A DNA stretch of 64,000 nucleotides from an uncultured virus (IMG/VR IMGVR_UViG_3300029913_001576) (taxonomy: Duplodnaviria; Heunggongvirae; Uroviricota; Caudoviricetes): IMG/VR virus record IMGVR_UViG_3300029913_001576, one strand, 5' to 3'. Shown one piece after another: positions 981 to 60,886 of this stretch (positions are counted from its first letter, which is position 1; every line of letters begins with the position of its first letter). Below the pieces are notes generated by a model that worked only from the letters and a program-made list of their open reading frames with translations, was not told the DNA's origin and ran no database searches. A program made the translations under genes and the position numbers.

Positions 981-1325
981 TCAAACCGGGTGCGAGTCCA
1001 GTTCCTCAATCGCCCTGCGGGCGTCGTGAGCGGACATCGTGGGGCGCACGTAACCGGCAGTCTGGATGCGGTTCCGGAACTCGGTCTTGACGGCGAGAAA
1101 CTTGTCAGCGCCCAGCATTTCAAGCTCGGAGGCAAAAAGGCCCTCCTGTGCGTGGTACCCCTCGACCTGCTCTAGCGCCCGGCGGTACTTCGCCGCCAGC
1201 TCGCGATTGCGCTCGCGGTACTTCTGGAGACGCTCGGAACTGCCCGCAGCGAGCCATGTGAAGAAGCCAGAGGCCAAGGCCGCAGCTACCGCGGAGCCCC
1301 CAGTGACAATGTTCGGGTCAATCAT
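981..1325 (-). CDS. small membrane-anchored coiled-coil protein
   Basis: N-terminal hydrophobic helix then charged helix; class-1 motif. Confidence 0.7.
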   Translation of the reverse strand: MIDPNIVTGGSAVAAALASGFFTWLAAGSSERLQKYRERNRELAAKYRRALEQVEGYHAQEGLFASELEMLGADKFLAVKTEFRNRIQTAGYVRPTMSAHDARRAIEELDSHPV

Positions 1326-2041
1326 ACCCCAAGATGGGAGGCGTCGGAATAGAGGTACAAATGCCGCAGGTCCCTCTCCCGCTCAACGGTCGCCGGAGAG
1401 AAGTCTCCCATGGCTGGCATGTCGAACCGCACGACCGCCTTTCCGTGACGCGTGCCGACGACCGTGCCGCAAAGGACCCCCGAGCGATTGAAGACGGGCG
1501 CAAGCCGAGGATCGCGGCACACAAAATGGACAAGGTTTCCGATGAGTGCGACCGGGTCGCCGGACGCAGGGACCATGTCGGCGCCGAACGTGTCGTGCGA
1601 ATGCCTGTCGGGCTGCATCAGGGCCTCGTCAGTGACAAGGATTGGGCTCGTGTAGTTCGAGAGGTTTTCGCCGCCATCGGCCTGCTGCACGACCTCTACG
1701 GGCAACGGATGCCCGTAGGTCGTGCCGTAGCGCTCATTGTAGCCCAGGAAGCGGATGCCGGTGAGGGCTTCCCATGCGCACGAGGTGGTGTGAAATGTGG
1801 ACTCGCGATTGATGAACCTCACGCGCCCGTCGATGGTGATGACCGCGCTCGACGCACTCATGCTGCTCCACAGCGTGAACCGGCGACCGGCGATGATAAC
1901 GTCATACCGGCTGTGCCAACCTGGGGCGGGGAAAGACGAAGGGACCTTGTGCCCGTTCAACCGCATCGTGCGGGTGTGCCATGCAAGCAGCCTTAGCGTC
2001 GGCACCGTGATCGTCCTGGGGCGGATGACTGTAGCGCTCAT
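1322..2041 (-). CDS. hypothetical protein
   Basis: 239 aa; CCCATAATTG-N4-ATG upstream; reads through the next class-1 motif. Confidence 0.65.
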   Translation of the reverse strand: MSATVIRPRTITVPTLRLLAWHTRTMRLNGHKVPSSFPAPGWHSRYDVIIAGRRFTLWSSMSASSAVITIDGRVRFINRESTFHTTSCAWEALTGIRFLGYNERYGTTYGHPLPVEVVQQADGGENLSNYTSPILVTDEALMQPDRHSHDTFGADMVPASGDPVALIGNLVHFVCRDPRLAPVFNRSGVLCGTVVGTRHGKAVVRFDMPAMGDFSPATVERERDLRHLYLYSDASHLGV

Positions 2042-2076
2042 GAGACAATTATGGGAGAACGGTGCGTGGATCGGGT

Positions 2077-2352
2077 TCAGGATGATACCCGTGGGCTGTC
2101 CTTGGAACGGGTTCCATTCCAGCGGTCGGCAAGTACCTGCCTCGCAAACTGCCAGTCCCTGCCGTCAAACCAGAAGTCTTGAACGAAGACCTTGCGAAAA
2201 ACTTCCCCGAACGAACAAACCCACTTCGCCAGGGCCACGATCAGCCCCCATGCAAGCGCGAGCAGGTAAACCACGGCGATCCCGATTGCGGCCAGAATAA
2301 CGAGTGCGCGGTGCCCCATAAGGGACGCATCGACTGAGGAAGTGGCGTGCAT
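2077..2352 (-). CDS. small membrane protein
   Basis: one TM stretch; class-1 motif. Confidence 0.6.
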   Translation of the reverse strand: MHATSSVDASLMGHRALVILAAIGIAVVYLLALAWGLIVALAKWVCSFGEVFRKVFVQDFWFDGRDWQFARQVLADRWNGTRSKDSPRVSS

Positions 2353-2355
2353 GAA

Positions 2356-2730
2356 TCAAGATGGCCTGACTGCGCGAAGCTCCAGAACGAGGGCGTCTCG
2401 GAGGAGGGCGCGGGCAACTTTGTCAGCCGCTCTCAAGACCCGCCGGCGGTTACCTGGGACCATAGGGGTCACGTCGGCCACGGGTTCCCACGAGGAATCG
2501 TCGCCAAGCCTGGAATATCGGGCTGCCTTCGCCTGCCTACCCACCTCGCCCTCCTCGGCCCCGTAGGCGTCGAGGTAAATCTGGGTGTGAGGGACCCTGA
2601 AAATCGAATGAAGCACGGCGCCATCGCTGCGAAGCGTCAGGCATTCGCCCGCCGGAGCCAAACGTGCAAGAGCCGCCGTAAGGGCGTGGCAATGGCCATT
2701 CGCGAAGTCGAACGTGAGGGAGGTATTCAC
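2356..2730 (-). CDS. hypothetical protein, possible Cys-His-Asp (papain-like) fold
   Basis: GTG start fixed by motif; FANGHCHALTAAL...VLHS...YLDAYG. Confidence 0.6.
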   Translation of the reverse strand: MNTSLTFDFANGHCHALTAALARLAPAGECLTLRSDGAVLHSIFRVPHTQIYLDAYGAEEGEVGRQAKAARYSRLGDDSSWEPVADVTPMVPGNRRRVLRAADKVARALLRDALVLELRAVRPS

Positions 2731-2755
2731 TCCCCAAGATGGCCGCCTCTCGGAA

Positions 2756-3124
2756 TCAGACCGCGAGAAGCAATTGGCCTGCCCGTTCGGGAACCTCTTC
2801 GCCGGGTGAGGAACTCCACATCGAGACACCGTGGCGAACCTTCGGGAGTAGCTCCAAAGCCTGTTCCACCGTCAAGGGCGTCATGTATGCCCGGTTATCT
2901 CGTGTCTGCGCCATGAGGTCGCCGTACGACTTGAACCGGGCGTGAGCCTCCGCGCTAAGCAGCAGGGATGCCGCCGTCTTGCTGGTATCGGCAGCGACGA
3001 CGCCCTCAATCCAGTCAGACTCCCCAACGACCTCGAACGAGACATGGAAGTAGCGTTCGCCGGAGCCAAGAATCGGAAGGCCGTCGGCGCGGTCAGTGCG
3101 GAAAGGGAGCGTCTTTGAGGGCAT
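2756..3124 (-). CDS. hypothetical protein
   Basis: start re-called to MPSKTLPF by class-1 motif. Confidence 0.65.
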   Translation of the reverse strand: MPSKTLPFRTDRADGLPILGSGERYFHVSFEVVGESDWIEGVVAADTSKTAASLLLSAEAHARFKSYGDLMAQTRDNRAYMTPLTVEQALELLPKVRHGVSMWSSSPGEEVPERAGQLLLAV

Positions 3125-3137
3125 GGCGCAAGATGGG

Positions 3138-3797
3138 TCACTCGTCACAGGTCCTCGAAACAAGGTTAAGGATACGCTGGAATAGCCCCACCCTGGGGGC
3201 GCTGTAGCGCAAGGGGTCAAGGGTCTCGTCCCAGTAGATGCCGTCGATCATCGGCGCAGAAGCGTCAAGCAACGCGGTAACCGCCGCGTCAAGCGTGTCG
3301 CAAAGCGCAACCGTGGTGCCTGGGTGTCGCTGACCCCAGTATGTGCAAAGCTGAACCGTGGGTGCCCAGCACAGGCACTCGCGCAAGCGGCCGCCCTCAA
3401 CAAGCTCGGCATGGGCCTCCGCCTTGGTGAGGTGCATCGTGAAACACGGTTCCCCGTCCTCGTTTGTCGCCCAACACTTGAATGCAAGGCGGCGCTCAAC
3501 TAACCCGCGAGCGGCGGCGATAGCCGTCAGTTGGTGCTTCGGGATGCTGTAGTAGTCCGCGAGGACGAACCCCCCGGGCTTAACGAGACTCCAAAGGGGG
3601 CGACCCCCAAGCTCTGCGATCATGAGCCAGGCGTCAGCAGTCTCCTCGTCGATGGAACAGGAAAGGCACGGCCCCTCATTGCTCGCGCCCCGCGTTGGCG
3701 CCAGAGGATTGTCGAGGAATCCGTAATGGAGCAGCGCTCCATCGTGGCAAACCGTCGGAATCTTCAGACCTGCTAGTGCAGGGGCGATAACGGGCAT
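3138..3797 (-). CDS. hypothetical protein (weak ART-like pattern)
   Basis: 219 aa; class-1 motif; LLHYG...CLSCS. Confidence 0.65.
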   Translation of the reverse strand: MPVIAPALAGLKIPTVCHDGALLHYGFLDNPLAPTRGASNEGPCLSCSIDEETADAWLMIAELGGRPLWSLVKPGGFVLADYYSIPKHQLTAIAAARGLVERRLAFKCWATNEDGEPCFTMHLTKAEAHAELVEGGRLRECLCWAPTVQLCTYWGQRHPGTTVALCDTLDAAVTALLDASAPMIDGIYWDETLDPLRYSAPRVGLFQRILNLVSRTCDE

Positions 3798-3824
3798 GGC
3801 GCAAGATGGCGCCTACTATGCCGC

Positions 3825-4111: not shown

Positions 4112-4327
4112 TCAGGCGGCCCTCCGCTGGTGCGGAAGCCGGTGGTGGGCGAAGTCGCGGATGCGCTTCTTCCATTCCGCGTCCTTGTCCTTCTTGCGCT
4201 GGGGACCGCCGAAAGCGCCCTTGGTCGTGGGGCGGGGACCGGACGGGCCGGACGGGCTGCGCCAGAACGCCTCAGAGCCGAAGAAGTGGTCGCAGGACGG
4301 GTACGCGCGAATGAGGTACGGGTTCAT
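4112..4327 (-). CDS. small basic hypothetical protein
   Basis: class-1 motif then ACG-ATG. Confidence 0.5.
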   Translation of the reverse strand: MNPYLIRAYPSCDHFFGSEAFWRSPSGPSGPRPTTKGAFGGPQRKKDKDAEWKKRIRDFAHHRLPHQRRAA

Positions 4328-4353
4328 CGTGAGACAAGATGGCGGAGGTTCGC

Positions 4354-5982: not shown

Positions 5983-6507
5983 TCACGTTCCCACCTCCGC
6001 AATGCAGATAGTGTCATTGTGAGCGCCACCGTGAGCAACCATCAGGATTTCAACGATTTCAAACCCACGCTCTTTGCCCATTCCCGCGCTATTCCAGCCA
6101 AAGGACAAGACGGTTGCTCCGCGCCTAAGGCACCCCATCGCCGCATCCCTGGTTCGCTTGTAGAGCGCCCCATTTTGGGTTTGCTGCATCGACGCCCGTA
6201 TTCCAACGGAATCGTAGCATTCGGACATCTGGCGCGGGGAATAAGGTGGGTCGAAAAGCAAGAGGTCGGCGCTGACTCCATCGGCTTGCAGCACGTTAAG
6301 AAACTCCCACGATTCAAGATGCCGTTTGGCCCTGGTCTTGGGGTTCAGATCGTTTGTGAGCGTCGCCAAATCACAATTGCGAGCGAACGGATCGACGCTG
6401 ATCTTGCTGGCAGCGAGGTAGCGGCTTACAAACTCCCTGATGGGAGGAATGCTGAACGTGTCGGCGTTAGGCATCGCCCAAACGCGATTGAATTTAATGG
6501 CGGTCAT
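5983..6507 (-). CDS. putative amino (N6-adenine/N4-cytosine) DNA methyltransferase, IS passenger
   Basis: VDPFA SAM-binding motif, catalytic DPPY, phage-type WAMPN and HGGAHNDTI motifs. Confidence 0.75.
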   Translation of the reverse strand: MTAIKFNRVWAMPNADTFSIPPIREFVSRYLAASKISVDPFARNCDLATLTNDLNPKTRAKRHLESWEFLNVLQADGVSADLLLFDPPYSPRQMSECYDSVGIRASMQQTQNGALYKRTRDAAMGCLRRGATVLSFGWNSAGMGKERGFEIVEILMVAHGGAHNDTICIAEVGT

Positions 6508-6602
6508 GGCCTTCAATGTATCATGCCTTGTTACGTGTCGCAATGGGATACTCGCCTTGGTCGAAGTCGTTCATAGGCGCGTGGGCGTGGAGCAAGATGG
6601 GG

Positions 6603-7466
6603 TCAGTCCTTGGTCGCCGCCGTGATTCCGGCGCGGGCCAGCGTCAGGATACCCTTGAGCTTCAGCGTGCGCTGCGCCTCGGTGTCGCTTAGGGCGTCTA
6701 CGGCAACGGTCTCGATGTTGCGAAACAGCCCGAGGAGCTTGGCGTGGGCGTTGCAGGCGCGGATGATGAAGTCTGCCTTCGCGGGATTGGCGTAGCAAAG
6801 TAGCTCGCCCTGCTCACGGTCCTGAATCTCTGCCACCTCTTCCGAGCGGGGAGGTTTTTCGTTCGTCAGCAAAGCCTCGTAGGAGTCGAGCACCGCATAA
6901 GCGGCGATCACTCCAATTGCAGCGCGCGGCCCGGTGGCCAGTGCGTCGGCGGTAGCTGCCTCCTGGGTCGTGGCGAAGGGATTCGCCGCGTCGAAACCGC
7001 GCAGGAACTCCAAGACGCTAGGATATTCCCGAAAGCTGTCCATCTCCCGTTTCACGTTGCTCGAAAGCGTGCAGGGCGAGTCGAGGCTGACAGGGAGTGC
7101 TGCGTCGTCCGTCACAAGGAACTCGATCTCGCCGATGGTTCGCGAGTACGCCTCGCATCCTCCGCCTGTGGCCATGGAGGCGAACCGCTTGCTGGCCATC
7201 GCGACTGCAACCGCGAGATAGCCAACGGACAGGTCGGCGGGAAAAGTAGATAGGGTGTCCGTGGTTTTTCCGGAGACATACTGCACCCCTACGTTGAACG
7301 CATCGCCGTCGAACCCGGCTGCGACATACGCGTCCGCGTCGGCGTCAACGGGGAGCGACAGGAAGAACGGGTACTCGATGTTGGCCCTGAACCCGGCATC
7401 GCTAAGGACGGCGGCAATTGAGCGCAGTCGGGTCTCGTTGTCGGGCCGTGTGGCGGAAGTGGGCAT
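6603..7466 (-). CDS. hypothetical protein
   Basis: 287 aa; C-terminal ADFIIRACNAH phage-type motif. Confidence 0.7.
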   Translation of the reverse strand: MPTSATRPDNETRLRSIAAVLSDAGFRANIEYPFFLSLPVDADADAYVAAGFDGDAFNVGVQYVSGKTTDTLSTFPADLSVGYLAVAVAMASKRFASMATGGGCEAYSRTIGEIEFLVTDDAALPVSLDSPCTLSSNVKREMDSFREYPSVLEFLRGFDAANPFATTQEAATADALATGPRAAIGVIAAYAVLDSYEALLTNEKPPRSEEVAEIQDREQGELLCYANPAKADFIIRACNAHAKLLGLFRNIETVAVDALSDTEAQRTLKLKGILTLARAGITAATKD

Positions 7467-7508
7467 GGGAGGGGGGCGGAACTACGGCAAGATGGTTCGG
7501 GCGAGAGG

Positions 7509-7775
7509 TCAGACGGGCTCGCAGGAGAGGAGGTCGTAATGGGGAACCGAAACCTCGCTCCGGGGCACACGCTTGCCGGAGAGCGTGAGCGATTCCTTCG
7601 CCGCGTTCCACGTGGCGACCACATCGGCGGCCACTGGAGCGGTGAACACGAAGCACTTCATGCCGAAGGTCCGGCGCTTCTCCGACCACTTGAAGATTCG
7701 CACGAAGGCCCGGGCCTGGCCCTTGATCTTCACGCGGTAGCGAGTGGCGGGTTTAAGGGGAAGGGTTGGGCTCAT
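7509..7775 (-). CDS. hypothetical protein
   Basis: 88 aa; class-1 motif 29 nt upstream. Confidence 0.6.
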   Translation of the reverse strand: MSPTLPLKPATRYRVKIKGQARAFVRIFKWSEKRRTFGMKCFVFTAPVAADVVATWNAAKESLTLSGKRVPRSEVSVPHYDLLSCEPV

Positions 7776-7832
7776 GGAGGAGGTGGTGGGGTTGCGTTCT
7801 GGAGCAAGATGGCGCGGCTAATGCCCCGCGCC

Positions 7833-52057: not shown

Positions 52058-52308
52058 AAATCAAGATGGGAAACCGTCCTCGCGAACGACCGCGTCACCA
52101 GCCTCATCCACGTCGATCTGGATGCTTCCTCCGAAGACCGAGACTTTGCGGGCTTTGGACCGGCCAAGGGCAGCCCGAGCAATGCGGAGCCCCACCATCT
52201 TCCACTCCTTCACACTAACCTCCCGGGAGGATGAAGTAGTGACTCGGACCTGGAAGTTGAGCGTGTCGGGCATAATGGAGTGGTGTTTACGGGTTAAGAT
52301 GGCGCCGG

Positions 52309-53262
52309 TCAGACGCGCAGCGGCGAAAGCGTCGCCGGCTCACCGTTCGACGGGTCAAAGAAGAATGTCTGCTGACCTTTTAGCGAAGCTGCCGGAGTCA
52401 GCATCACCTGTTTGGGGAACTTGCCCCATTCAGCCAGCACCTCTGGGAGGTCGCATTTGCCCGTCGGCCGTAGGCGGGAATCCCATCCGATCTGCTCTGC
52501 GACGGCCATGAAGATTCCATAGTCGAGGTCGTTGGCCTTAAAGGGACGGTCGGGCTTCTGGAGCACAAGGATGCTCGTCTTGGCACTCGTTCCTGCGTGA
52601 AGGAAGGTCTCCCGGGGAAGTGAGATCACCGCTCGGAGCCAATACTGGGTCAAAAGCGCCTGGCGCTGCTTCTGGCAGCTGCTATTGGCGAGAATCCCGT
52701 CCGGAACCACCATCGCCAGCCAGCCCCCGGGCAGGAGTGCCTGCATGCCCAATTCGATAAAAAACCACGTGGCATCGCGCTGGCCAGTCGCGAACGTGAA
52801 GCCCTCATGGTAGGCCCCCCGGGGGAGGTCCACAAACGGCGGATTGCCGATGCAGTAGTCGAAAGTCTCCCTGAGGGACCCCAACTGGGTGAGCGCGTCG
52901 CCGGGGAGGATGGACGCAGAGGGGCAGAGCAACTGGGCTACCTCTGCCGTCTGGAGGTTTAGCTCCAGCCCGGTGACTCGGCAGGCTGGCGGCAAAGCCC
53001 CGATAAACGCCCCACCCCCGCAGCTGGGCTCCAGGACATCTCCTCCCTTGACCCTGAGGAAGGCGACGATGAAGTCCACGACGACCTTGGGCGTGAAGTA
53101 TTGGCCTCCATCGAAGCGGGACGGTACGAGACCCCCGGAGCCGGTAAAAGAGGCCCGCAACGTGCCCAGCTCCTCGACTGTGAGGGGTCTGGATCGCGAC
53201 AGCTGGACCAGCTTCTCGGCCGTCTCGTTGTTTTCAGAGCGCTGGTACTCTCGTTTTCCCAT
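52309..53262 (-). CDS. N6-adenine DNA methyltransferase (HsdM/N-6 DNA methylase-like), orphan
   Basis: GQYFTP, LEPSCGGG, IGNPPF, VVPDGIL, VISLP...F. Confidence 0.9.
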   Translation of the reverse strand: MGKREYQRSENNETAEKLVQLSRSRPLTVEELGTLRASFTGSGGLVPSRFDGGQYFTPKVVVDFIVAFLRVKGGDVLEPSCGGGAFIGALPPACRVTGLELNLQTAEVAQLLCPSASILPGDALTQLGSLRETFDYCIGNPPFVDLPRGAYHEGFTFATGQRDATWFFIELGMQALLPGGWLAMVVPDGILANSSCQKQRQALLTQYWLRAVISLPRETFLHAGTSAKTSILVLQKPDRPFKANDLDYGIFMAVAEQIGWDSRLRPTGKCDLPEVLAEWGKFPKQVMLTPAASLKGQQTFFFDPSNGEPATLSPLRV

Positions 53263-53326
53263 GTGCCAAGATGGGAGCGGAGCCCTGGAAGGACGTTCCC
53301 CAAGGTTGCGGGCGTTCGAGGGTCCG

Positions 53327-53639: not shown

Positions 53640-53936
53640 CTAAATCGAAGCGGGCTCGGCAATGACCTGACCGCCAACCTTCCCTCCTTGGAGGAGCCAG
53701 AGGGCCATAGCCGGCCGCTCGATTTTCGTCTGCATGGCCCGATTCAACTCGTGTGCCGTTGCCGACTCGTCCGTCGTCTGGTTCTTCGGCCAGACCTCGT
53801 CCAAGGCCACGTAAGCCTGGAACGACGCCACGTCATGAAGATTGCCGCGCGCCTTCGCATCGGCCCATGTCTGGACGGTAAACGCAACATCGCCCAGGGC
53901 GGCGCGGGCGAGGAGGAATGCTTCTGGGGTGGTCAT
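53640..53936 (-). CDS. hypothetical protein
   Basis: class-1 motif 25 nt upstream. Confidence 0.55.
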   Translation of the reverse strand: MTTPEAFLLARAALGDVAFTVQTWADAKARGNLHDVASFQAYVALDEVWPKNQTTDESATAHELNRAMQTKIERPAMALWLLQGGKVGGQVIAEPASI

Positions 53937-53981
53937 GGAGTGGGCATGTTGAACCGCAACGCAAGATGGCTAGGCGACCCG

Positions 53982-54395
53982 CTAGACCCTCCGCCAATGC
54001 TCGGACTCTTGGACGTAGATGTACAATGCCTCAATGCGCCTTGTCATCGAGAAGGCCGCCCACTCTTTTGGAACCTCGCCAGTCTCCTTGCCGGAGTAGT
54101 ACATGCCGGCAAAACCACCGTCGGTCTCTCCGAGGTGAGTCTGCAACGCGGCGAGGGCCTGGCTGAAGTCGTCGGACAGGACTGAGCGAAGAATTACCGC
54201 TCCAACCGGGTCTGGCCTCTTGCGCACCACGGCAGCATCACCCTCGGTCGGTGTCTCGTAGGCGAACATTGACGGACGGATACGAACGCCATCTGCGACT
54301 TTGACCCACGGCCCGCTCTCATTGACCGGGCAATCGCCCGAAAAGATGAACGTGGCCCCGGCGGGGAGGGAAGAGAACGTGCGGATCTTCGGCAT
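53982..54395 (-). CDS. hypothetical protein
   Basis: class-1 motif. Confidence 0.65.
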   Translation of the reverse strand: MPKIRTFSSLPAGATFIFSGDCPVNESGPWVKVADGVRIRPSMFAYETPTEGDAAVVRKRPDPVGAVILRSVLSDDFSQALAALQTHLGETDGGFAGMYYSGKETGEVPKEWAAFSMTRRIEALYIYVQESEHWRRV

Positions 54396-54398
54396 GAG

Positions 54399-54728
54399 TT
54401 AAGATGGGTTGGGGTTTGCGCCCGGAGGAAGCGGGTGAAGCTTGTCCACGGCCCGCATCGCAGCCAATGCCGACTTGAATCGCCTTGGGGCCGAAAGCCG
54501 GAAGGTGCGACCCCCTGGGCCGGTTCGCGTGCAGCCGACCTCGTGGGAAAGGCAACGCTCGCTCGGGTCAGGCTCCCAAGCCGTCCACATTCTCGCCCGT
54601 GGATTTGCAGGGTTTGGGTGTGGAGAGTTGGCGTCCCACTTGACCGCAGCTCCGTCAGACCGGCGCCATTGCAAGTCAACCACAACACAGGTCCATCCCG
54701 CCGGGCCGACTGGCGCTGTTGGGGGCAC
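54399..54728 (-). CDS. hypothetical protein
   Basis: stop lies inside the motif. Confidence 0.55.
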   Translation of the reverse strand: MPPTAPVGPAGWTCVVVDLQWRRSDGAAVKWDANSPHPNPANPRARMWTAWEPDPSERCLSHEVGCTRTGPGGRTFRLSAPRRFKSALAAMRAVDKLHPLPPGANPNPS

Positions 54729-54739: not shown

Positions 54740-55423
54740 TCAGTCGCCGTTCGGGTCAGCGATGCCAAATTTCAGGCACCCTGCGTCAAATTTCTGGGTG
54801 CGGCCAAAAGCCCAGACGGCGAACTCCGGGCTGCGGTTCGGCCGCCGCTTTGTGAACGAGTCGATCACCTTCTTTGCCCCTGCAAAATCGTAGAGCGGTT
54901 CATCACTACAGGGGTAGGACAGCAGCTTGGTGGAGCCGGCTGCCTTCCCGGGGCACGGAACGACCACCTTGAATGTGTGCCCGTCGCTCGCTTCCTTGTG
55001 GTTGAACCCCGTGTTCGGGCAGATTGCCCGGAGGTTGCACTGCGCACACACGGCGGGCTCGCAGGTGAGTCCAACCGCCGGCTCGCGGGTCCAGCGATAG
55101 ATCAGCGCGCACAGAACGGGACGCGGGTCGGCCTGGGCCTGGACCCAAGCGGCGAAATCGGGCTCGTTGACAAACTTGTGCGCAAGGCGGGTTGCGAAGC
55201 TATCGGTCAACGCGCGATACTCCTCTTCAGTCGTGAACACGACGCGACAACGCCCGAGAGCGGACTCGACGAACCACTCGGGAACTATCCCGGTGGCGGC
55301 TTCCATGGCGCGTCCGTCCGCTGTGGTCGCAGCGAGTTCTACGGACGGAGTTTCGCGGGCCTCAAGCTCCGGGAACATCCCCAGTTGCTCCATGCCGGAG
55401 CTGCGTTCCAGTGTCGGTGTCAT
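54740..55423 (-). CDS. Cys-rich hypothetical protein
   Basis: class-1 motif; CAQC...CP. Confidence 0.65.
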   Translation of the reverse strand: MTPTLERSSGMEQLGMFPELEARETPSVELAATTADGRAMEAATGIVPEWFVESALGRCRVVFTTEEEYRALTDSFATRLAHKFVNEPDFAAWVQAQADPRPVLCALIYRWTREPAVGLTCEPAVCAQCNLRAICPNTGFNHKEASDGHTFKVVVPCPGKAAGSTKLLSYPCSDEPLYDFAGAKKVIDSFTKRRPNRSPEFAVWAFGRTQKFDAGCLKFGIADPNGD

Positions 55424-55450
55424 AGGTGAAGATGGGGCAGGTTTCCGTGC

Positions 55451-56386
55451 TCAGATCGCCAGCTCCAGCTGCGGCAAAAGCTCACAGGTGCCGTTCGCGT
55501 TAATCCGCATGGACTGGAGCGGATCAACCTGCTTCGGGTAGCGGTCGATCCCCAGGCTGTGCGAGCGCAACACGGGGAGCGATAGGACGGCTTTCTTCTC
55601 CCGTCGGTCGGCCGCCAGGGGAAAAACGAAAAGGTAATTTCCTGCATGGCGCTCTACGCGGAGTGTCGCGAGTGCGCGTTCAACGTACGCGCTCGGCTCC
55701 TCAAGCTCCTCGCGGACGCATCCAGTTGCCTCGGTGAGCATCCGTTCGGCGTAGGCGCGGCCTTCCTCGCCGTTCCTGAGCTTGCTCAGAATTCGGTTCG
55801 CGATAGCCTTGCCGTCGGGCGTGAGGTACAGGGTCTTCGGGCTGGCGCGGCCGCAGAAGAGCGCGTTGCTGGCGGAGTAGACGCCTCCGATATGGCCCGG
55901 AAAAACGATCTTGCCGGCTGCGTTCCGGCGAGGGTGCGGGTCGCTGTAGGACAGGACGACGCGGATTCCGGGGCGTTGGGCCTTGAACAGCCGAAGCGCC
56001 CTGGCGAGAAACCACGTCTCGGCGTTCCCCTCAACCTCATCAAGGAGGACAAACCGCCCAAGTTCGGCGCCCTCTTCAGTGCCGAGCCCGGACCAGCGGG
56101 TGATCGAGTTCGGGTTACTCGGGGTCGAGAAGCTGGCCACGCCAACAAGTCTCGACGCGAGAAAATCCCCGTCCTTACGGAACAGGCCGACGCTGTTCAT
56201 CTCGTACGGGAACGATCCCGAGTAATGATGCTGGATCACGAACGCCTTGGCCTCGGTCTTGCCGATCACCTCAACTCCATGGATCGACGGGTCCATCGGT
56301 TCCTGCGCCGGGCGAAAGAGAGAAGCCCGTGCGCGCCACCTCTGCGCGCTCGTGGCGAGAGCTTGTTGGTTGGTGAGGTCGAGCAT
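55451..56386 (-). CDS. Mom-family adenine-modification (GNAT-fold) protein
   Basis: QHHYS, ELGRFVLLD, NAETWFLARAL, VLSYSDP, GHIGGVYSASN. Confidence 0.85.
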   Translation of the reverse strand: MLDLTNQQALATSAQRWRARASLFRPAQEPMDPSIHGVEVIGKTEAKAFVIQHHYSGSFPYEMNSVGLFRKDGDFLASRLVGVASFSTPSNPNSITRWSGLGTEEGAELGRFVLLDEVEGNAETWFLARALRLFKAQRPGIRVVLSYSDPHPRRNAAGKIVFPGHIGGVYSASNALFCGRASPKTLYLTPDGKAIANRILSKLRNGEEGRAYAERMLTEATGCVREELEEPSAYVERALATLRVERHAGNYLFVFPLAADRREKKAVLSLPVLRSHSLGIDRYPKQVDPLQSMRINANGTCELLPQLELAI

Positions 56387-56389: not shown

Positions 56390-57115
56390 TTAAGATGGGC
56401 AGCCCGGGAGCGTGTCCCACGGACGGTGCAAGCGCGGTCGCGTATCGAACTGCCCCGTCCAGCCCTCGGACATCCACGTTCCCTTCATGCCGGCCCGGAG
56501 ATGGTTGGCCTTCGCCGTAACGACGGGGTAAGCGGCGATGTCGCCCGCGAGCCTTTCCATTGTAGGAAGGGCGTCGTAGGCGAGGTGGAAGACATGTGAG
56601 CGCGAGCCGGGCTCGAACTCTGTGTCGCCGGTCGTGGCGTCGAAATTGGTCGGGCCGGTCGTGCAATAGACCGACACGAGGAGCATCGTGCCGTAGGCGT
56701 CGCGCTTAATGCCGACCCCCTCGGTCTTGCCACGCCCCTTGCTTTGAAGGATTCCCATATCCTCGTCGTGCCCCATGCCTCGCGCGAGGATCGGCGCGTA
56801 ATAACGGTCCACTACGTCGAGGGCCTCCTCCATGGCGTCGGACTGGATCTCTTCGGCCTTGGTGGACGGGCGCCACCCCTGGAACCAGCGGAACGCCCAA
56901 CCGCGCTTGCCGAACCGCTCGCGCTCGAACGCGGCGATGCGACTTGCGGACGTACGCATGCCCTCCATGAAGGCGCTGGCTAGTTCGTCGCGGTCGGCCT
57001 GGGTGAAGTAGACGGTCTCGGACGCACAGGGAAGGATTCCCGTGGCGCGCGTGGCCGCGATGACGCTCGCTGCGTCACTTGTCGGGAGTTCAAGCTGATT
57101 GGCGATGCAGCACAT
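56390..57115 (-). CDS. hypothetical protein
   Basis: class-1 motif; stop inside the next motif. Confidence 0.65.
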   Translation of the reverse strand: MCCIANQLELPTSDAASVIAATRATGILPCASETVYFTQADRDELASAFMEGMRTSASRIAAFERERFGKRGWAFRWFQGWRPSTKAEEIQSDAMEEALDVVDRYYAPILARGMGHDEDMGILQSKGRGKTEGVGIKRDAYGTMLLVSVYCTTGPTNFDATTGDTEFEPGSRSHVFHLAYDALPTMERLAGDIAAYPVVTAKANHLRAGMKGTWMSEGWTGQFDTRPRLHRPWDTLPGCPS

Positions 57116-57148
57116 GGCTCAAGATGGTCGAGCTTTGCACTCCTGGAA

Positions 57149-57454
57149 CTAGGCCGCCGCCAGCTCCTGGACCGGGTTATCCACGGCGAAACAGCCGGCG
57201 ACGATCTGGGTGAGCACCCAGCCCGTGCCGCTGCGATTGTCCGGGTTCTGGAACTTGAAGGCGCGGTCCGCTGCGTCAGTCACGATCACGGCAATCCCGT
57301 GGTCGGAATCCGTGAGCATTTTCCAACCCGTGAGCTTGTTGCGGGTGTCGCGGACGGGTGTTGCCCGCTCTGCCATGATCTGAAGCTCCAGCGTGACAGG
57401 AATCTCAACCGGGGCGGGATGCTCAAGGGACGGGGACGTGTGCGAGGCGTTCAT
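57149..57454 (-). CDS. hypothetical protein
   Basis: class-1 motif. Confidence 0.65.
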   Translation of the reverse strand: MNASHTSPSLEHPAPVEIPVTLELQIMAERATPVRDTRNKLTGWKMLTDSDHGIAVIVTDAADRAFKFQNPDNRSGTGWVLTQIVAGCFAVDNPVQELAAA

Positions 57455-57824
57455 GCCTCAAGATGGCAGAGCGAAAATGCGCCACCCACCCTACCAGCAC
57501 ACCTCGATCAAAAGGTCCCCCCAAACGGAAGCCGCCCCGCCAGCTTCGTTTAGGAGGGCTCCCAACTCCCACCCCCCCCAGACCAGATACCCACGCTCAC
57601 GGACATCAGCCAGATGCGTTGCGTGATTCGGCTAGATCCAACTCAACTCGGGCTGAATCTCGAAGATGTGCGTGCAGTCGTTCCCCAGTACCGATCCTCT
57701 GCACTGAGGTCTCCAACTATGGAGTCGTACTAGGGTTTGCCGAGGAACTCACCCACGACCCGTTGGACGGTTTTGTAGTCGATGGCGTTGACGGAGCGGG
57801 CCTCGCTAGGCCCGGTTAGCGGAC

Positions 57825-58139
57825 CTATTCGATCTCGACCGCGGTGTTGACGTAATCGAGGACCTCCAAGCCAGCGGCCTTCATATCGTGCCCCGTGGAG
57901 ACATCGGTGTAGGTCGATCCCTTGCCGCCGTGGTCCTTCTCGAACGCCAGAACCGGCTTGTAGATATTGCCTGCCTCGTCCTGAAGCCCGCAAACGATCC
58001 CCGAGGGGGCAACATAGGGCTTTAGACCCGTGGCGAGCACAGAGACTTCGAGACTAACGGTGATCGAGATTCGATTGGAGTTGGGCATTGTACCGGAGAG
58101 ATTCGGGGTTGACGGAAAAGGGATAGGTTCGTTGTTCAC
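57825..58139 (-). CDS. hypothetical protein
   Basis: GTG start fixed by motif. Confidence 0.6.
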   Translation of the reverse strand: MNNEPIPFPSTPNLSGTMPNSNRISITVSLEVSVLATGLKPYVAPSGIVCGLQDEAGNIYKPVLAFEKDHGGKGSTYTDVSTGHDMKAAGLEVLDYVNTAVEIE

Positions 58140-58158
58140 GGGGCAAGATGGCGAACGG

Positions 58159-58602: not shown

Positions 58603-58622
58603 GACGGTGGAGTCCTCGGGCC

Positions 58623-59300
58623 TTAGGCTGCAACCGCTGTGGGTTCGACGGCGAAAGTTCCGCCCGGCACGACCAAGGGCATCAGCCACGTGTAGAGTGC
58701 GAGCCTCCCGAGGAGAGATTGGCGGGCCTTGTCCATCTCTGCCTGCGTGGAGCCACCTCGGACAACGAGCATGGCGGAATCGCGGTCGTGCGCAGCGAGG
58801 CTCTCGTGCGTACTGGCAATGCACCCCTCCACGTCGGAAATGGATGTGAACGCCTTCCACCCCGTGAGAAGCGTCGAAAGCGCTTCAGCGGTGATCCCCT
58901 CGGGAATCGTGACGAAAAGGTCAGGGTGGTACCTGCGAACCTTCTGCGGAATATCACGCCCTGCCTTCAGGGCATCCTCGACGATCTGGCGGTGCGTGAG
59001 CCACACCCGCGCCGCAAGCTCCTCCGAAATCAGATAGAAGTCTCCCGGGAACGACTTCGCCAGCGCCTCGGCCGCCATGTACTCCGGGCCAATACCCACC
59101 GTGGCCTTGCGTTTGGTCGGCGTCATCCGTCCGACACGAATCACCTGGCGCTGCACCCGGCTCAGGTAGCCGCCACCTTCCGCCCGGTAGAAGTAGAGAT
59201 TACCGGGAACCAGATCCTCAAACTTCTCGGCCCTGGCAGCCATGAGGAGCACCTCAAGGGCTTGGCCGTATTCGATGGGGGTCAGGGCGTAGGGGATCAT
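58623..59300 (-). CDS. hypothetical protein
   Basis: 225 aa; start overlaps upstream stop. Confidence 0.65.
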   Translation of the reverse strand: MIPYALTPIEYGQALEVLLMAARAEKFEDLVPGNLYFYRAEGGGYLSRVQRQVIRVGRMTPTKRKATVGIGPEYMAAEALAKSFPGDFYLISEELAARVWLTHRQIVEDALKAGRDIPQKVRRYHPDLFVTIPEGITAEALSTLLTGWKAFTSISDVEGCIASTHESLAAHDRDSAMLVVRGGSTQAEMDKARQSLLGRLALYTWLMPLVVPGGTFAVEPTAVAA

Positions 59301-59563
59301 TGCGGGATGTCGATTGCAGGGCGATAGCTCCCTGCAAGATGGCGGACGTAGGCGGCGTATTCGCGATCCTTGGGCTGCCAGTAGTCCGCGTGGTTATTGA
59401 GCCACCTTTGCATGGCCTCGCTGAGCACAAGGTCGCTGCGGACCTGTGCCAAGCGGGACTCCCACTCAGGCTTCAGCCTGGCGTCAATCGAGCCGATCTC
59501 TCGCACGGCGCTCTCAAGAATGTCGAGGAGCCGGAGGCGATGAACTTGTGCGGGCTCGCTCAC
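59297..59563 (-). CDS. hypothetical protein
   Basis: start/stop overlaps on both sides. Confidence 0.55.
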   Translation of the reverse strand: MSEPAQVHRLRLLDILESAVREIGSIDARLKPEWESRLAQVRSDLVLSEAMQRWLNNHADYWQPKDREYAAYVRHLAGSYRPAIDIPQ

Positions 59564-59865
59564 GGAGATACCGGGGTTGCCAGGGGCGGAAGGCTCGTTG
59601 CCTCACTGAATTCCTTGATCGACAGTCCTTCAATCGTAACTAGGTCGAGGACGTTGATCCGATAGGTCCAGGGACTGTTCCGGCTCCACTGCTCGCAGTG
59701 GACATTGAGCTGGTGGTCTTGGCCTTCATCAGGCTCGAACCGGATCGCCCCACCCCGGCGGCAAATTACGCGCCCGGAGGTATCCGGCCAGCGGTCTCCG
59801 CCGGCTCGCCTCGGGTACGGATTCACCGTCACCACCATGCCCGCCTTTATGTCCTTAGGCTTCAT
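59560..59865 (-). CDS. hypothetical protein
   Basis: MKPKDIKAG... Confidence 0.55.
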   Translation of the reverse strand: MKPKDIKAGMVVTVNPYPRRAGGDRWPDTSGRVICRRGGAIRFEPDEGQDHQLNVHCEQWSRNSPWTYRINVLDLVTIEGLSIKEFSEATSLPPLATPVSP

Positions 59866-60157
59866 GTTCGACGATGGTTTCCTCCCCGACGTATTCGCGT
59901 TCCAGAAAGTTAGGAAAGCGTTTCGAGATAGGGCGCATCTCGAACTCCACAATCTTCGCGTAGTGCCATTCAGCCGTCTTCGCTATCTCTTTCGCGAATT
60001 CGGTGGCCAGGTCCAGCGTGTCAAAGTCGCGATGACCATAGGAGGCTCCGTCCATGTCGGCATCCGAGGAGCCGTCGGCGTTGTTGATGATCGGGATGTT
60101 CTTGCACCACTCGACCTCAAAGCCATGCAAGCGCTTGCACTTTGAGCGGGGAATCAT
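59855..60157 (-). CDS. hypothetical protein
   Basis: start re-called by motif. Confidence 0.6.
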   Translation of the reverse strand: MIPRSKCKRLHGFEVEWCKNIPIINNADGSSDADMDGASYGHRDFDTLDLATEFAKEIAKTAEWHYAKIVEFEMRPISKRFPNFLEREYVGEETIVEHEA

Positions 60158-60886
60158 GCCCCAAGATGGTTCGCTTCCTGCCAACGCTTTCCCGCGGTCT
60201 CCGCCTCGCCAGCGGTGTTGAACTTGTGGCGCCCCTGGAACGTGATTGTGGACCCATCCTCGGAGTGGACATAGAAGTGGTTTCCGTCCGGCCACCTGGT
60301 GACCGTGAACTTGCGGTTGGTGAGGTCGGAGTCGGGAACCCACCTCCAACCGGCAAGCATGGCCCGCAGGACAACCCCGTAGGCTACGTCGCGGAGCACA
60401 CCGTCCCGGAAGAATCGGGGGCACCCAGCACCCATCCCGTAGAACCTCCACTTTGCGCCGGCGGGAGAAACAAGAGTGCCGTGCCCAAAGTAGTCCGGCC
60501 GCCCGGCAGTCTTGCTGGCGGCCCACCGGCTCCAGACGCGGTTGTAGGCGTGGTAGCCACAGTCGAACCGTGCAAGGATCGTGGTGGTAGCGCAGGGCAC
60601 GGGATTACCCCCTCCCCCAGGGGAGGGGTGATAAAGCGACGGGAAGGGATAAAGCGAAGGCAGCCTTTTGGGCTTTGTCTGCCCCTCCATTGCCCCACAT
60701 GGCCGTTTCTAGGGCACAGGCGGCCTTAATTCGGCCGAGACAGCCCTCCGCTACCTTGCGGGAAGGGGAAACAACGTAGCGGACCCTGGAAAAGCCGAGG
60801 ATGTCGCCTGCCCGGCCGGTCCCGTTTGGGGTGAAGTCGCCCAGGGGAGGCCCCTGGCGATTGACGGAAATGAAGGTCATGGGCGC

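What the first reader, a model, noticed from the sequence alone, without database searches (positions are those of the whole stretch)
1322..60169. Upstream genes end in or against the motif: possible cassette junction / gene-capture system
Seen: five unrelated ORFs end in Pro-Ser-stop because the motif itself (CCA TCT TGA/TAA) supplies the stop (ends at 2356, 11329, 52061, 54399, 56390). Others read through it (1322, 23282, 60154) or stop 0-5 nt before it (3138, 6603, 10990, 12272, 14647, 17616, 22404, 30115). There is no room for terminators or -35 boxes. Inference: either strong deletion bias collapses the array to motif+ORF, or the motif is also the crossover point where genes are inserted or shuffled (integron-like but without attC palindromes).
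Basis: partly seen in the sequence, partly recalled or inferred. Interest (0 to 1): 0.8.

Follow-up and report, generated by a model that had tools for sequence, protein, structure and literature searches.

The report
Gene-start signal, not a cassette junction
The repeated eight-letter motif sits at a fixed distance in front of about sixty genes of an unknown peat phage-like element and is most likely its own compact promoter, starting each message at the start codon; nothing supports a gene-capture site.

Summary
CCATCTTG occurs 52 times on the minus strand (2 on plus; about 2 expected on both strands together). Upstream ORFs do end in it (5), read through it, or stop 0-3 nt before it (11).

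The motif belongs to the downstream gene. Of 62 minus-strand CCATCTT[G/A/C] sites, 41 have ATG/GTG exactly 4 nt later. The upstream stop ranges from -41 to +79 nt.

A pyrimidine-A pair at a fixed distance (motif+11/+12) is kept in 13 of the 21 sites whose start codon is not at +4 (P about 8e-9). There is no -35 block, no Shine-Dalgarno signal and no excess of terminators. The first 50 nt after the motif are G-poor and unstructured.

Best reading (0.55): a compact single-element promoter with an initiator, giving leaderless or near-leaderless mRNAs. A second, bipartite promoter-like motif (CCCATAMTT, 12 copies) also abuts start codons.

Stops made by the motif fit chance plus tight packing: A follows the motif in 9 of 52 sites, and 3 of those 9 are in frame. 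No integrase or reverse transcriptase was found, only an IS1595 transposase. No palindromes and no joints at the motif were found in 4 DNA runs. No diverged relative could be fetched, so the breakpoint test was not possible. Earlier notes of this scan describe similar promoter signals in other large phages.

The parts
61604..61611 (-). class-1 motif CCATCTTG; ATG at +4, ORF 61129..61599 (GNAT); upstream stop 8 nt before
60162..60169 (-). class-1; ATG +4, ORF 59855..60157; upstream ORF (ends 60154) reads through, ATGA overlap
59335..59342 (-). class-1; ATG +34, ORF 58623..59300; positions 11-12 GG (no Y-A)
58144..58151 (-). class-1; GTG +4, ORF 57825..58139
57459..57466 (-). class-1; ATG +4, ORF 57149..57454
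57120..57127 (-). class-1; ATG +4, ORF 56390..57115
56391..56398 (-). class-1 variant CCATCTTA; ATG +4, ORF 55451..56386 (Mom-like); supplies TAA of upstream ORF (ends 56390)
55428..55435 (-). class-1 variant CCATCTTC; ATG +4, ORF 54740..55423
54400..54407 (-). class-1 variant CCATCTTA; ATG +4, ORF 53982..54395; supplies TAA of upstream ORF (ends 54399)
53962..53969 (-). class-1; ATG +25, ORF 53640..53936
53267..53274 (-). class-1; ATG +4, ORF 52309..53262 (N6 DNA methylase)
52295..52302 (-). class-1 variant CCATCTTA; ATG +21, ORF 52061..52273
52062..52069 (-). class-1; ATG +4, ORF 51410..52057; supplies TGA of upstream ORF (ends 52061)
51382..51389 (-). class-1; ATG +4, short ORF 51255..51377 (40 aa)
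49211..49218 (-). class-1; ATG +4, ORF 48913..49206
47922..47929 (-). class-1; ATG +5, ORF 47650..47916
46795..46802 (-). CCATCTTC inside codons 2-4 of the 664-aa paralogue; probably not a functional site
42343..42350 (-). class-1; ATG +4, ORF 41916..42338
41732..41739 (-). class-1; ATG +4, ORF 41407..41727
41828..41835 (+). only plus-strand start-linked copy: CCATCTTC, ATG +4, small ORF 41840..41956 (38 aa)
40111..40118 (-). class-1 variant CCATCTTA; ATG +17, ORF 37868..40093 (741 aa)
32362..32369 (-). class-1; ATG +4, ORF 32061..32357
31320..31327 (-). class-1; ATG +4, ORF 30848..31315
30813..30820 (-). class-1 variant CCATCTTA; ATG +4, ORF 30515..30808
30356..30363 (-). class-1; ATG +4, ORF 30115..30351; upstream ORF reads through (ATGA)
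30106..30113 (-). class-1; ATG +4, ORF 29484..30101; upstream stop 1 nt before
29474..29481 (-). class-1; ATG +4, ORF 29212..29469; upstream stop 2 nt before
28465..28472 (-). class-1; ATG +4, ORF 28260..28460
27864..27871 (-). class-1; ATG +4, ORF 27341..27859
26353..26360 (-). class-1; ATG +28, ORF 25929..26324; T-A kept at positions 11-12
25053..25060 (-). class-1 variant CCATCTTC; ATG +7, ORF 24662..25045
24652..24659 (-). class-1 variant CCATCTTA; ATG +8, ORF 23918..24643
23890..23897 (-). class-1; ATG +4, ORF 23730..23885
23300..23307 (-). class-1; ATG +4, ORF 22819..23295 (HAD_SAK_2); upstream ORF (ends 23282) reads through
22795..22802 (-). class-1; ATG +7, ORF 22404..22787; C-A kept at 11-12
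22394..22401 (-). class-1; ATG +11, ORF 21273..22382; upstream stop 2 nt before
21253..21260 (-). class-1; GTG +4, ORF 20592..21248
20052..20059 (-). class-1; ATG +4, ORF 19634..20047
19283..19290 (-). class-1; ATG +5, ORF 18630..19277
18604..18611 (-). class-1; ATG +4, ORF 17946..18599
17926..17933 (-). class-1; GTG +4, ORF 17616..17921
17608..17615 (-). class-1; ATG +7, ORF 17154..17600; upstream stop abuts the motif (0 nt)
17081..17088 (-). class-1 variant CCATCTTA; ATG +4, ORF 14647..17076 (809 aa, DndC/PAPS-reductase-like N-terminus)
14637..14644 (-). class-1; ATG +7, ORF 14237..14629; upstream stop 2 nt before
14223..14230 (-). class-1; ATG +4, ORF 13157..14218
13144..13151 (-). class-1; ATG +6, ORF 12718..13137
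12707..12714 (-). class-1; ATG +6, ORF 12272..12700
12263..12270 (-). class-1; ATG +4, ORF 11872..12258; upstream stop 1 nt before
11633..11640 (-). class-1; ATG +4, ORF 11329..11628
11330..11337 (-). class-1; ATG +4, ORF 10990..11325; supplies TGA of upstream ORF (ends 11329)
10981..10988 (-). class-1; ATG +4, ORF 10722..10976; upstream stop 1 nt before
10415..10422 (-). class-1; ATG +4, ORF 10081..10410
10047..10054 (-). class-1; ATG +6, ORF 7833..10040 (NHL repeats, Ig-like)
7805..7812 (-). class-1; ATG +29, ORF 7509..7775; C-A kept at 11-12
7488..7495 (-). class-1; ATG +21, ORF 6603..7466; T-A kept at 11-12
6593..6600 (-). class-1; next long ORF 5983..6543 (DNA methyltransferase phrog_11619) starts 49 nt later; C-A kept at 11-12
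4335..4342 (-). class-1; ATG +7, ORF 4112..4327
3802..3809 (-). class-1; ATG +4, ORF 3138..3797
3129..3136 (-). class-1; ATG +4, ORF 2756..3124; upstream stop 1 nt before
2735..2742 (-). class-1; GTG +4, ORF 2356..2730
2357..2364 (-). class-1; ATG +4, ORF 2077..2352; supplies TGA of upstream ORF (ends 2356)
1330..1337 (-). class-1; ATG +4, ORF 981..1325; upstream ORF (ends 1322) reads through, ATGA overlap
612..619 (-). class-1; ATG +4, ORF 374..607
62745..62753 (-). class-2 motif CCCATACTT; ATG of thioredoxin-like ORF 62177..62698 lies 45 nt after CATACTT
51212..51220 (-). class-2; ATG 6 nt after CATACTT, ORF 49247..51205 (paralogue A)
46812..46820 (-). class-2; ATG 6 nt after, ORF 44811..46805 (paralogue B, 664 aa); the spacer upstream carries the only indel seen among contigs (46826-46830)
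40942..40950 (-). class-2 (CCCATAATT); ATG 6 nt after, in frame with ORF ending at 40198
36348..36356 (-). class-2; ATG 15 nt after, ORF 35598..36332
35552..35560 (-). class-2; ATG 5 nt after, ORF 34938..35546
32018..32025 (-). class-2 variant ACATACTT; ATG 16 nt after, ORF 31342..32001
2047..2055 (-). class-2 (CCCATAATT); ATG 5 nt after, ORF 1322..2041
329..337 (-). class-2 (CCCATAATT); ATG 6 nt after, ORF running off the window
26799..26807 (+). class-2 on plus strand; ATG 5 nt after, ORF 26813..27331 (+)
32513..32521 (+). class-2 on plus strand; ATG 8 nt after, plus-strand ORF ending 32976
42411..42419 (+). class-2 on plus strand; ATG 21 nt after, ORF 42441..42866 (+)
26390..26398 (+). class-2 sequence on plus strand without a nearby start codon

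Best explanation
CCATCTT[G>A,C]-NNN-Y-A is a gene-start signal of a phage-like element from peat metagenomes. Most likely it is a compact single-element promoter: the octamer lies at -12 to -5, with a pyrimidine at -1 and an A at +1. Because that A is usually the A of the ATG, each gene would be transcribed as a leaderless mRNA, or one with a 1-3 nt leader. The promoter would be read by a phage-specific sigma-like factor or RNA polymerase that was not seen in this window. Upstream genes end in or against the motif because the genome is tightly packed and nothing upstream of the octamer is needed. The stop codons inside the motif are by-products. SHOWN: the enrichment, the strand bias, the fixed spacing to start codons, the independent conservation of Y-A, the lack of upstream conservation, the lack of Shine-Dalgarno signals, and the unstructured G-poor downstream region. 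INFERRED: that the A is a transcription start, and which enzyme reads the motif.
For: (1) 52 minus-strand copies against about 2 expected on both strands. (2) 41 of 62 CCATCTT[GAC] sites have ATG/GTG at exactly +4, and a further 12 have one at +5 to +8, one of which (46795) lies inside a gene. (3) Of the 21 sites whose start codon is not at +4, 13 keep pyrimidine-A and 16 keep pyrimidine-purine at motif+11/+12. The expected fractions are 0.10 and 0.25 (binomial P 7.7e-9 and 1.2e-6). So that A is constrained independently of the start codon, as expected for an initiating nucleotide. All 7 exact-motif (CCATCTTG) sites with the ATG at +6 or +7 have Y-A there. (4) No position from -45 to -1 carries information (at most 0.13 bit), so there is no -35 element. 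(5) Conservation is all-or-none. One-mismatch copies number 35 on the minus and 33 on the plus strand, and the only start-linked ones vary in the last letter. This pattern is typical of protein-DNA recognition. (6) SD-like 4-mers occur upstream of 9 of 106 starts, against 14.6 +/- 3.4 at random positions. (7) Terminators and sigma-70 consensus promoters are not above shuffles. (8) The 50 nt after the motif fold weakly (-8.1 against -12.3 kcal/mol, P 4e-10) and are G-poor (0.227). (9) A second motif, CCCATAMTT (12 copies against 0.26 expected), has a -10-like hexamer 6-7 nt before the ATG in 7 of 12 instances and a weak upstream ATTCC block. This is the geometry reported for leaderless genes of Deinococcus (PMC12340547, section 7 read). 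(10) There is published precedent for 'short motif, fixed spacer, T-A/G(+1)' phage promoters in AR9 (AACA-6N-TA/G, 94 of 118 late starts; PMC5312081, passages read).
Against: No RNA data exist: no listed run is RNA. No RNA polymerase or sigma factor was recognised among the window's ORFs, although only 64 kb of a contig reported as 158 kb was visible. The octamer does not fit TANNNT; only the A and the last T match, in the CATCTT register. It occupies the position where a ribosome-binding site would sit. Some genes have neither motif nor SD (for example 43835..44770 and 33747..34904), so internal initiation without a leaderless start must be possible here. About 60 promoters in 64 kb without terminators is unusually dense. 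For the similar SAS motif, the published reading favours translation (PMC3203893).
Confidence: 0.55

Rival explanations
1. RNA-level translation start signal. Long polycistronic mRNAs start at the class-2 promoters, and CCAUCUUG, 4 nt before each AUG, recruits ribosomes in place of a Shine-Dalgarno sequence. It would do so through a phage factor or a non-canonical rRNA contact, like the start-associated sequences (SAS) of Cluster K mycobacteriophages.
For: The motif sits at -12 to -5, the usual SD position. Every class-1 gene lies downstream of a same-strand class-2 motif with no excess of terminators between them. No SD exists. SAS show the same picture: 3-7 bp before starts, one orientation, non-structural genes, ATG preferred, and an upstream stop sometimes inside the motif (PMC3203893, passages read).
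Against: The motif has no complementarity to the anti-SD; from recall, it resembles the anti-SD itself. There are no graded or wobble variants as base pairing would allow. Y-A at motif+11/+12 is kept when the AUG is 2-30 nt further on, which a ribosome-binding role does not explain. Genes without the motif and without SD are presumably translated as well.
Confidence: 0.2
2. RNA processing site. A sequence-specific endoribonuclease cuts polycistronic transcripts just before the conserved A, producing leaderless mRNAs.
For: The geometry is the same as for a transcription start. The window encodes two large paralogues whose well-modelled C-terminal domain has a weak Foldseek match to RelE (3bpq_B: probability 0.80, E 0.52, 90 columns).
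Against: No such system is documented for phages in what I read. The RelE match is below significance. A promoter is the simpler explanation.
Confidence: 0.07
3. Binding sites of a regulator, like the 'stoperators' of Cluster A mycobacteriophages: asymmetric sites in one orientation in short intergenic gaps, bound by a repressor to block transcription.
For: There are many identical, strand-specific, intergenic copies. Stoperators are named as the contrast to SAS in PMC3203893 (passage read).
Against: The exact +4 spacing to start codons and the conserved Y-A are not features I know of stoperators (recall). No repressor-like gene was recognised.
Confidence: 0.07
4. Cassette junction or gene-capture site. 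The motif is the crossover point where genes are inserted, lost or shuffled, either as its main role or as a side effect of being a repeated promoter, as in the PeSL cassettes of T4-type phages.
For: About 60 direct repeats flank small ORFan genes. Several paralogue pairs each carry a motif. Some sites share up to 19 bp. PeSL promoter-terminator repeats do mediate shuffling and mini-circles in T4-type phages (PMC2839356, abstract read).
Against: The motif is tied to the downstream start, not to gene ends. No integrase, serine recombinase or reverse transcriptase was found in the window. There is no palindrome or conserved flank. Median shared identity between sites is 9 bp. Five metagenome contigs are collinear at 99.96-100% identity, and their only indel lies in a class-2 spacer. 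The contigs of 4 runs show no joint at a motif. That last test has low power: depth about 5, assembled contigs only, and a near-clonal population.
Confidence: 0.03

Closest known systems
Late promoters of jumbo phage AR9 (AACA-6N-T-A/G, non-virion RNA polymerase) and the highly conserved virion-polymerase promoters of phiKZ-like phages (PMC5312081, passages read)
   Same: A short, strictly conserved motif; a fixed spacer to a pyrimidine-purine start site; no -35 element; very many copies per genome (159 starts for 293 genes in AR9); strong sensitivity to single deviations.
   Different: AR9 leaders are 26-491 nt long, whereas here the predicted start coincides with the ATG. The motif here is GC-richer and different in sequence. 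No split beta/beta' polymerase genes were recognised in the window.
T4 late promoters (TATAAATA read by gp55/gp33/gp45); recalled, no paper read here
   Same: A single 8-bp element centred near -10, without a -35 element, in dozens of copies.
   Different: The sequences differ. T4 late mRNAs have leaders with SD sequences. No gp55-like protein was recognised here.
-10 motif adjacent to ORFs giving leaderless mRNAs in Deinococcus-Thermus (PMC12340547, section 7 read)
   Same: A promoter element 6-7 bp before the ORF, no SD, and a leaderless transcript. The class-2 hexamer CATACT/CATAAT fits this geometry in 7 of 12 instances.
   Different: That motif is a degenerate TANNNT of the host sigma factor, present in about a third of genes. 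The class-1 octamer here is invariant and is not TANNNT.
Start-associated sequences (SAS) of Cluster K mycobacteriophages (PMC3203893, passages read)
   Same: An asymmetric repeat 3-7 bp before start codons, in one orientation, in non-structural genes, with ATG preferred. The upstream stop codon sometimes lies within the repeat.
   Different: SAS is 13 bp, contains the SD core AGGAG, and has 11-19 copies per genome. Here the motif is 8 bp, has no SD core, occurs about 60 times in 64 kb, and has a conserved Y-A independent of the ATG.
Integron attC/cassette arrays and PeSL regulatory cassettes of T4-type phages (PMC2839356, abstract read)
   Same: A repeated element between small accessory genes.
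   Different: attC sites are imperfect palindromes at the 3' end of promoterless cassettes and need IntI. PeSLs are sigma-70 promoters plus stem-loop terminators. None of these features was found here.

Membership tests
Integron-like gene cassette array | Tyrosine recombinase (IntI) next to the array | tested here: not met
   No integrase, recombinase or reverse-transcriptase family was found among 106 (Pfam), 102 (PHROGs) and 107 (NCBIfam) ORFs of the window. The only recombination enzyme is an IS1595 transposase on the plus strand (5071-5958). The rest of the contig was not visible.
Integron-like gene cassette array | attC-type imperfect palindrome at the 3' end of each cassette | tested here: not met
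   The octamer is not palindromic. No position outside it is conserved. The 50 nt upstream fold only slightly better than random windows (z -0.41 against -0.06).
Integron-like gene cassette array | Site belongs to the gene end; cassettes are promoterless | tested here: not met
   The distance to the downstream start is fixed (41 of 62 at +4). The distance to the upstream stop ranges from -41 to +79.
Integron-like gene cassette array | Excised circles, or gene content that varies at the site among relatives | tested here: inconclusive
   No joints were found in the contigs of 4 DNA runs, and 5 contigs are collinear. However, the population is near-clonal, only assembled contigs were available, and no diverged relative could be fetched.
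Phage-specific single-element promoter (AR9 late / T4 late type) | Short conserved motif at a fixed distance from a pyrimidine-purine start site, without a -35 element | tested here: met
   CCATCTT[GAC]-NNN-Y-A. Y-R is present at 56 of 62 sites and Y-A at 50 of 62. There is no upstream information.
Phage-specific single-element promoter (AR9 late / T4 late type) | Primary transcript 5' ends at the predicted +1 | not testable with these tools
   No listed run is RNA.
Phage-specific single-element promoter (AR9 late / T4 late type) | Element encodes its own polymerase or sigma-like factor | tested here: inconclusive
   None was recognised by three HMM libraries, and there is no DxDGD or HDSF motif in the ORFs. 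Most ORFs match no family, and about 94 kb of the longest reported contig lies outside the window.
Leaderless genes with a -10 box next to the ORF (Deinococcus/Actinobacteria type) | TANNNT hexamer 6-7 nt before the start codon | tested here: not met
   Class-1: CCATCT (6 nt before the ATG) and CATCTT (5 nt) both lack the first T. Class-2: CATACT/CATAAT lies 6-7 nt before the ATG in 7 of 12 instances, which is a partial fit.
Leaderless genes with a -10 box next to the ORF (Deinococcus/Actinobacteria type) | No Shine-Dalgarno sequence before these genes | tested here: met
   9 of 106 starts have an SD-like 4-mer, against 14.6 +/- 3.4 at random positions.
SAS of Cluster K mycobacteriophages | 13-bp GGGATAGGAGCCC with an SD core, 3-7 bp before starts | tested here: not met
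   The position and orientation are alike. The sequence and the SD core are absent.
PeSL cassettes of T4-type phages | Sigma-70-like promoter plus stem-loop terminator | tested here: not met
   Sigma-70-type matches: 0 (3.1 expected) in 10000-29999 and 2 (4.9 expected) in 30000-49999. Terminator-like sites are at shuffle level.

The most novel reading that the evidence does not exclude
The octamer is not, or not only, a promoter. It could be an RNA signal that replaces the Shine-Dalgarno sequence, or a cleavage site that creates leaderless mRNAs, read by a factor of this element. Or, as a promoter repeated in front of nearly every accessory gene, it could also serve as the microhomology at which genes are duplicated, lost and exchanged (a minimal PeSL). 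Either way it would mark a lineage with a private gene-expression code and one start signal per gene.
Probability: 0.25. Interest if true: 0.7.

Novelty: new member of a known kind. Interest (0 to 1): 0.4.

Why it matters
If the reading holds, this uncultured element expresses most of its accessory genes one by one, from about one private promoter per kilobase, as mRNAs without leaders and without ribosome-binding sites. That gives a direct handle for correcting start codons in this lineage. It also predicts an unrecognised promoter-specificity factor or polymerase. It adds a GC-rich example to the growing set of large phages with compact promoters for leaderless mRNAs. It also removes a tempting but unsupported 'phage integron' reading.

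Tried and rejected
Relatives for a breakpoint test:
- Megablast of 10 kb against the phage collection gave no match.
- Five protein-seeded scans of viral contigs found no relative.
- A double-motif pattern scan of viral contigs found 0 stretches, so not even this element is held there.
- A double-motif scan of genome contigs gave 40 loci, about the number I estimated beforehand for chance. Those with many copies are tandem repeats (L025 31, L033 9, L043 7, L019 6, L012 5) or scattered copies inside genes. None shows the gene-start arrangement.
- The metagenome scan returned only 5 contigs of the same element at 99.96-100% identity.
- A profile of the two paralogues found 40 distant homologues among 1.84 billion representatives.

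RNA evidence: no RNA holder was listed among 24 runs.

Whole genome or whole contig: neither is held.

Other dead ends:
- A literature string search for the octamer returned 2,819 papers. The 15 listed were unrelated to phage promoters or start signals, judged from their titles, and I took the hits for primer sequences.
- There are no tRNA genes and no Rfam family at gathering score.
- The ESM Atlas search of the 385-aa ORF gave no usable hit.
- An AlphaFold model of the 620-aa paralogue (pLDDT 62.7) gave only generic helical-bundle matches and a sub-threshold RelE match.
- One odd contig in run X23 joins 15567 to 20125 with 9 foreign letters between, at depth 2.7. Neither end is at a motif, so I treated it as an assembly chimera.
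- I considered an archaeal-type promoter and rejected it, because there is no TATA or BRE block near -26.

Full report
THE OBSERVATION

CCATCTTG occurs 54 times in the window, 52 on the minus strand. Dinucleotide shuffles give 2.06 on average and never more than 7. Nearly all genes run on the minus strand.

- Five upstream ORFs end with a stop made of the last letters of the motif plus an A. These are TGA at 2356, 11329 and 52061, and TAA at 54399 and 56390 through the variant CCATCTTA.
- ORFs ending at 1322 and 60154 read through the motif and stop in an ATGA overlap with the next gene. The ORF ending at 23282 stops 26 nt past the start of the motif.
- The eight 'stop just before' cases lie 0-2 nt from the motif.

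Over all 62 minus-strand CCATCTT[G/A/C] sites, the distance from the upstream stop to the motif falls as follows: -41 to -9 in 14, 0-3 in 11, 5-8 in 6, 11-28 in 22, and 40 or more in 9.

WHAT THE MOTIF IS TIED TO

The motif is locked to the gene that follows it, not to the one before.
- Of the 52 exact copies, 36 have an ATG or GTG opening an ORF of at least 40 aa exactly 4 nt later, and 9 more have one at +5 to +7.
- With the last-letter variants included, 41 of 62 sites have a start at +4.
- One copy on the plus strand (41828, CCATCTTC) is followed at +4 by the ATG of a small plus-strand ORF.
- The position matrix of the 52 sites shows nothing conserved from -45 to -1 (at most 0.13 bit). After three free positions come C/T (48 of 52), A (44), T (37) and G (41).
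- Copies with one mismatch are as common on the plus strand (33) as on the minus strand (35). The only start-linked ones differ in the eighth letter. The signal is therefore all-or-none.

THE KEY TEST

I asked whether the conserved C-A before 'TG' is merely the start codon. Of the 21 sites whose start codon is not at +4, 13 still have pyrimidine-A and 16 have pyrimidine-purine at motif+11/+12. The expected fractions are 0.10 and 0.25, giving binomial P of 7.7e-9 and 1.2e-6.

All seven exact-motif (CCATCTTG) sites with the ATG at +6 or +7 read Y-A-N(1-2)-ATG. Four of the six exact-motif sites with the ATG 21-49 nt away also keep Y-A.

So an A preceded by a pyrimidine, five positions after the octamer, is a feature in its own right. 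That is the usual signature of a transcription start. In most genes this A is the A of the ATG, which implies leaderless mRNAs.

SUPPORTING CONTEXT

- SD-like 4-mers precede 9 of 106 starts, against 14.6 +/- 3.4 at random positions.
- Sigma-70-type promoter matches number 0 (3.1 expected) and 2 (4.9 expected) in two 20-kb stretches. Terminator-like sites are at shuffle level.
- The first 50 nt after the motif are G-poor (0.227) and fold weakly (-8.1 against -12.3 kcal/mol, P 4e-10). The 50 nt before it are only slightly more structured than random (z -0.41 against -0.06).

A SECOND MOTIF

Looking at genes without the octamer, I found a second motif, CCCATAMTT. It has 12 copies against 0.26 expected, plus one ACATACTT copy, and occurs on both strands. 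It lies in front of the larger genes and the few plus-strand genes.

It has a weak ATTCC block about 14 nt upstream. Its -10-like hexamer CATACT/CATAAT lies 6-7 nt before the ATG in 7 of 12 instances. That is the geometry described for leaderless genes of Deinococcus (PMC12340547, section 7 read).

The two motifs share CCAT and CTT and differ by one inserted base. Two promoter-like classes that both abut start codons make a promoter reading of the octamer more coherent.

WHAT THE ELEMENT IS

Most of the roughly 100 ORFs match no family. The hits are:
- a Mom-like protein;
- two DNA methyltransferases;
- a DndC/PAPS-reductase-like domain;
- two HAD_SAK_2 proteins;
- a GNAT protein and a thioredoxin-like protein;
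- an NHL/Ig-like protein;
- an IS1595 transposase on the plus strand.

No capsid, portal or terminase was recognised, so 'phage' is a likely label but not a proven one. There are no tRNA genes and no Rfam families.

The same DNA occurs at 99.96-100% identity in five metagenome contigs, and the longest contig on record is 158 kb. 23 of the 24 listed runs, all labelled peat metagenome and none of them RNA, hold half or more of the stretch's sampled words.

WHY GENES END IN OR AGAINST THE MOTIF

Nothing upstream of the octamer is needed, so packing can bring the preceding stop right up to it or past it. A follows the motif in 9 of 52 copies (17%, against 19% A on that strand). In 3 of those 9 the TGA is in the frame of the upstream ORF, which is the expected third. 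The Pro-Ser-stop endings are therefore a by-product.

The same phenomenon is noted for SAS in Cluster K mycobacteriophages, where the upstream stop sometimes lies within the conserved sequence (PMC3203893, figure legend read).

THE CASSETTE IDEA

- Recombinases or reverse transcriptases: none in the window apart from the IS1595 transposase.
- Circles and joints: contigs of four DNA runs laid on 20 kb show no joint at any motif. The power is low, because depth is about 5, only assembled contigs were available, and the population is near-clonal.
- Variation among contigs: the only indel is a 5-bp deletion at 46826-46830, in the spacer of a class-2 motif.
- Diverged relatives: none could be fetched.
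- Shared identity between sites: median 9 bp, at most 19 bp. From recall, I expect this to be far shorter than the PeSL cassettes that mediate shuffling in T4-type phages; I read only the abstract of PMC2839356, which gives no length.
- Paralogue pairs exist and each copy has its own motif. That is what any gene duplication would give.

The cassette reading is not refuted as a side effect, but nothing supports it.

RIVALS

A translation signal of the SAS type (0.2) remains possible, because the motif sits where an SD sequence would and all class-1 genes lie downstream of class-2 motifs. It does not explain the Y-A kept at a fixed distance when the ATG moves, or the lack of graded variants.

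An RNA cleavage site (0.07) shares the geometry of a transcription start. A stoperator-like regulator site (0.07) does not explain the spacing to start codons.

COMPARISON AND NOVELTY

The closest published systems are:
- AR9 late promoters (AACA-6N-TA/G) and the strictly conserved virion-polymerase promoters of phiKZ-like phages (PMC5312081, passages read);
- T4 late promoters (recalled, no paper read);
- -10 boxes adjacent to ORFs in Deinococcus-Thermus;
- SAS of Cluster K mycobacteriophages.

Earlier notes of this scan describe similar compact promoters for leaderless mRNAs in several other large phages, with different motifs. I did not test those notes. They agree with my reading and lower the novelty.

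I therefore file this as a new member of a known kind. What is unusual is its density (about one per kilobase), its invariance, its GC-rich sequence and the complete absence of SD signals.

Noticed in passing
window 329-337, 2047-2055, 26390-26398(+), 26799-26807(+), 32018-32025, 32513-32521(+), 35552-35560, 36348-36356, 40942-40950, 42411-42419(+), 46812-46820, 51212-51220, 62745-62753: Second start-linked motif, CCCATAMTT (12 copies against 0.26 expected), with a weak ATTCC block about 14 nt upstream. Its -10-like hexamer lies 6-7 nt before the ATG in 7 of 12 instances. It precedes the larger genes and the plus-strand genes, and is probably a second promoter class.
   Followed up: partly
window 5071-5958 (+): IS1595-family transposase (NCBIfam E 1.2e-62; phrog_25593) on the opposite strand within the minus-strand gene array. 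It is probably an insertion sequence; its ends were not defined.
   Followed up: partly
window 49247-51205 and 44811-46805 (-): Two paralogues (44% identity) of a family with no Pfam match. A profile search found 40 distant homologues of about 600 aa among 1.84 billion representatives. The C-terminal domain of about 110 aa is conserved and well modelled (pLDDT about 90), with a sub-threshold Foldseek match to RelE (3bpq_B). Each copy follows a class-2 motif.
   Followed up: partly
window 41776-41789 and 41883-41896 (+): Two exact copies of AAAATGTGACATCT (0.17 expected at up to 2 mismatches) flank the small plus-strand ORF 41840..41956 in a 175-nt intergenic gap. This could be an operator pair.
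   Followed up: no
window 5983-6543, 14647-17076, 52309-53262, 55451-56386 (-): A concentration of DNA-modification genes: two methyltransferases, a DndC/PAPS-reductase-like 809-aa protein and a Mom-like protein. This suggests heavily modified DNA.
   Followed up: no
window 46826-46830: The only indel among the five near-identical metagenome contigs is a 5-bp deletion in L003. It shortens the spacer between the ATTCC-like block and CCCATACTT in front of paralogue B.
   Followed up: no
window 19623-19630 and 20577-20584 (-): CCATTCTTG, the octamer with one extra T, lies 3-4 nt before the ATGs of ORFs 19310..19624 and 20071..20571. It may be a tolerated variant of the class-1 signal.
   Followed up: no
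L025, L033, L019 (one genome of genome contigs): Tandem arrays containing CCATCTTGTGCCATG in one MAG: copies about 118 bp apart in L025, with pattern matches recurring every 472 bp in L025 and L033. L019 holds 6 copies of the octamer. They were picked up by the pattern scan and are unrelated to this element.
   Followed up: no
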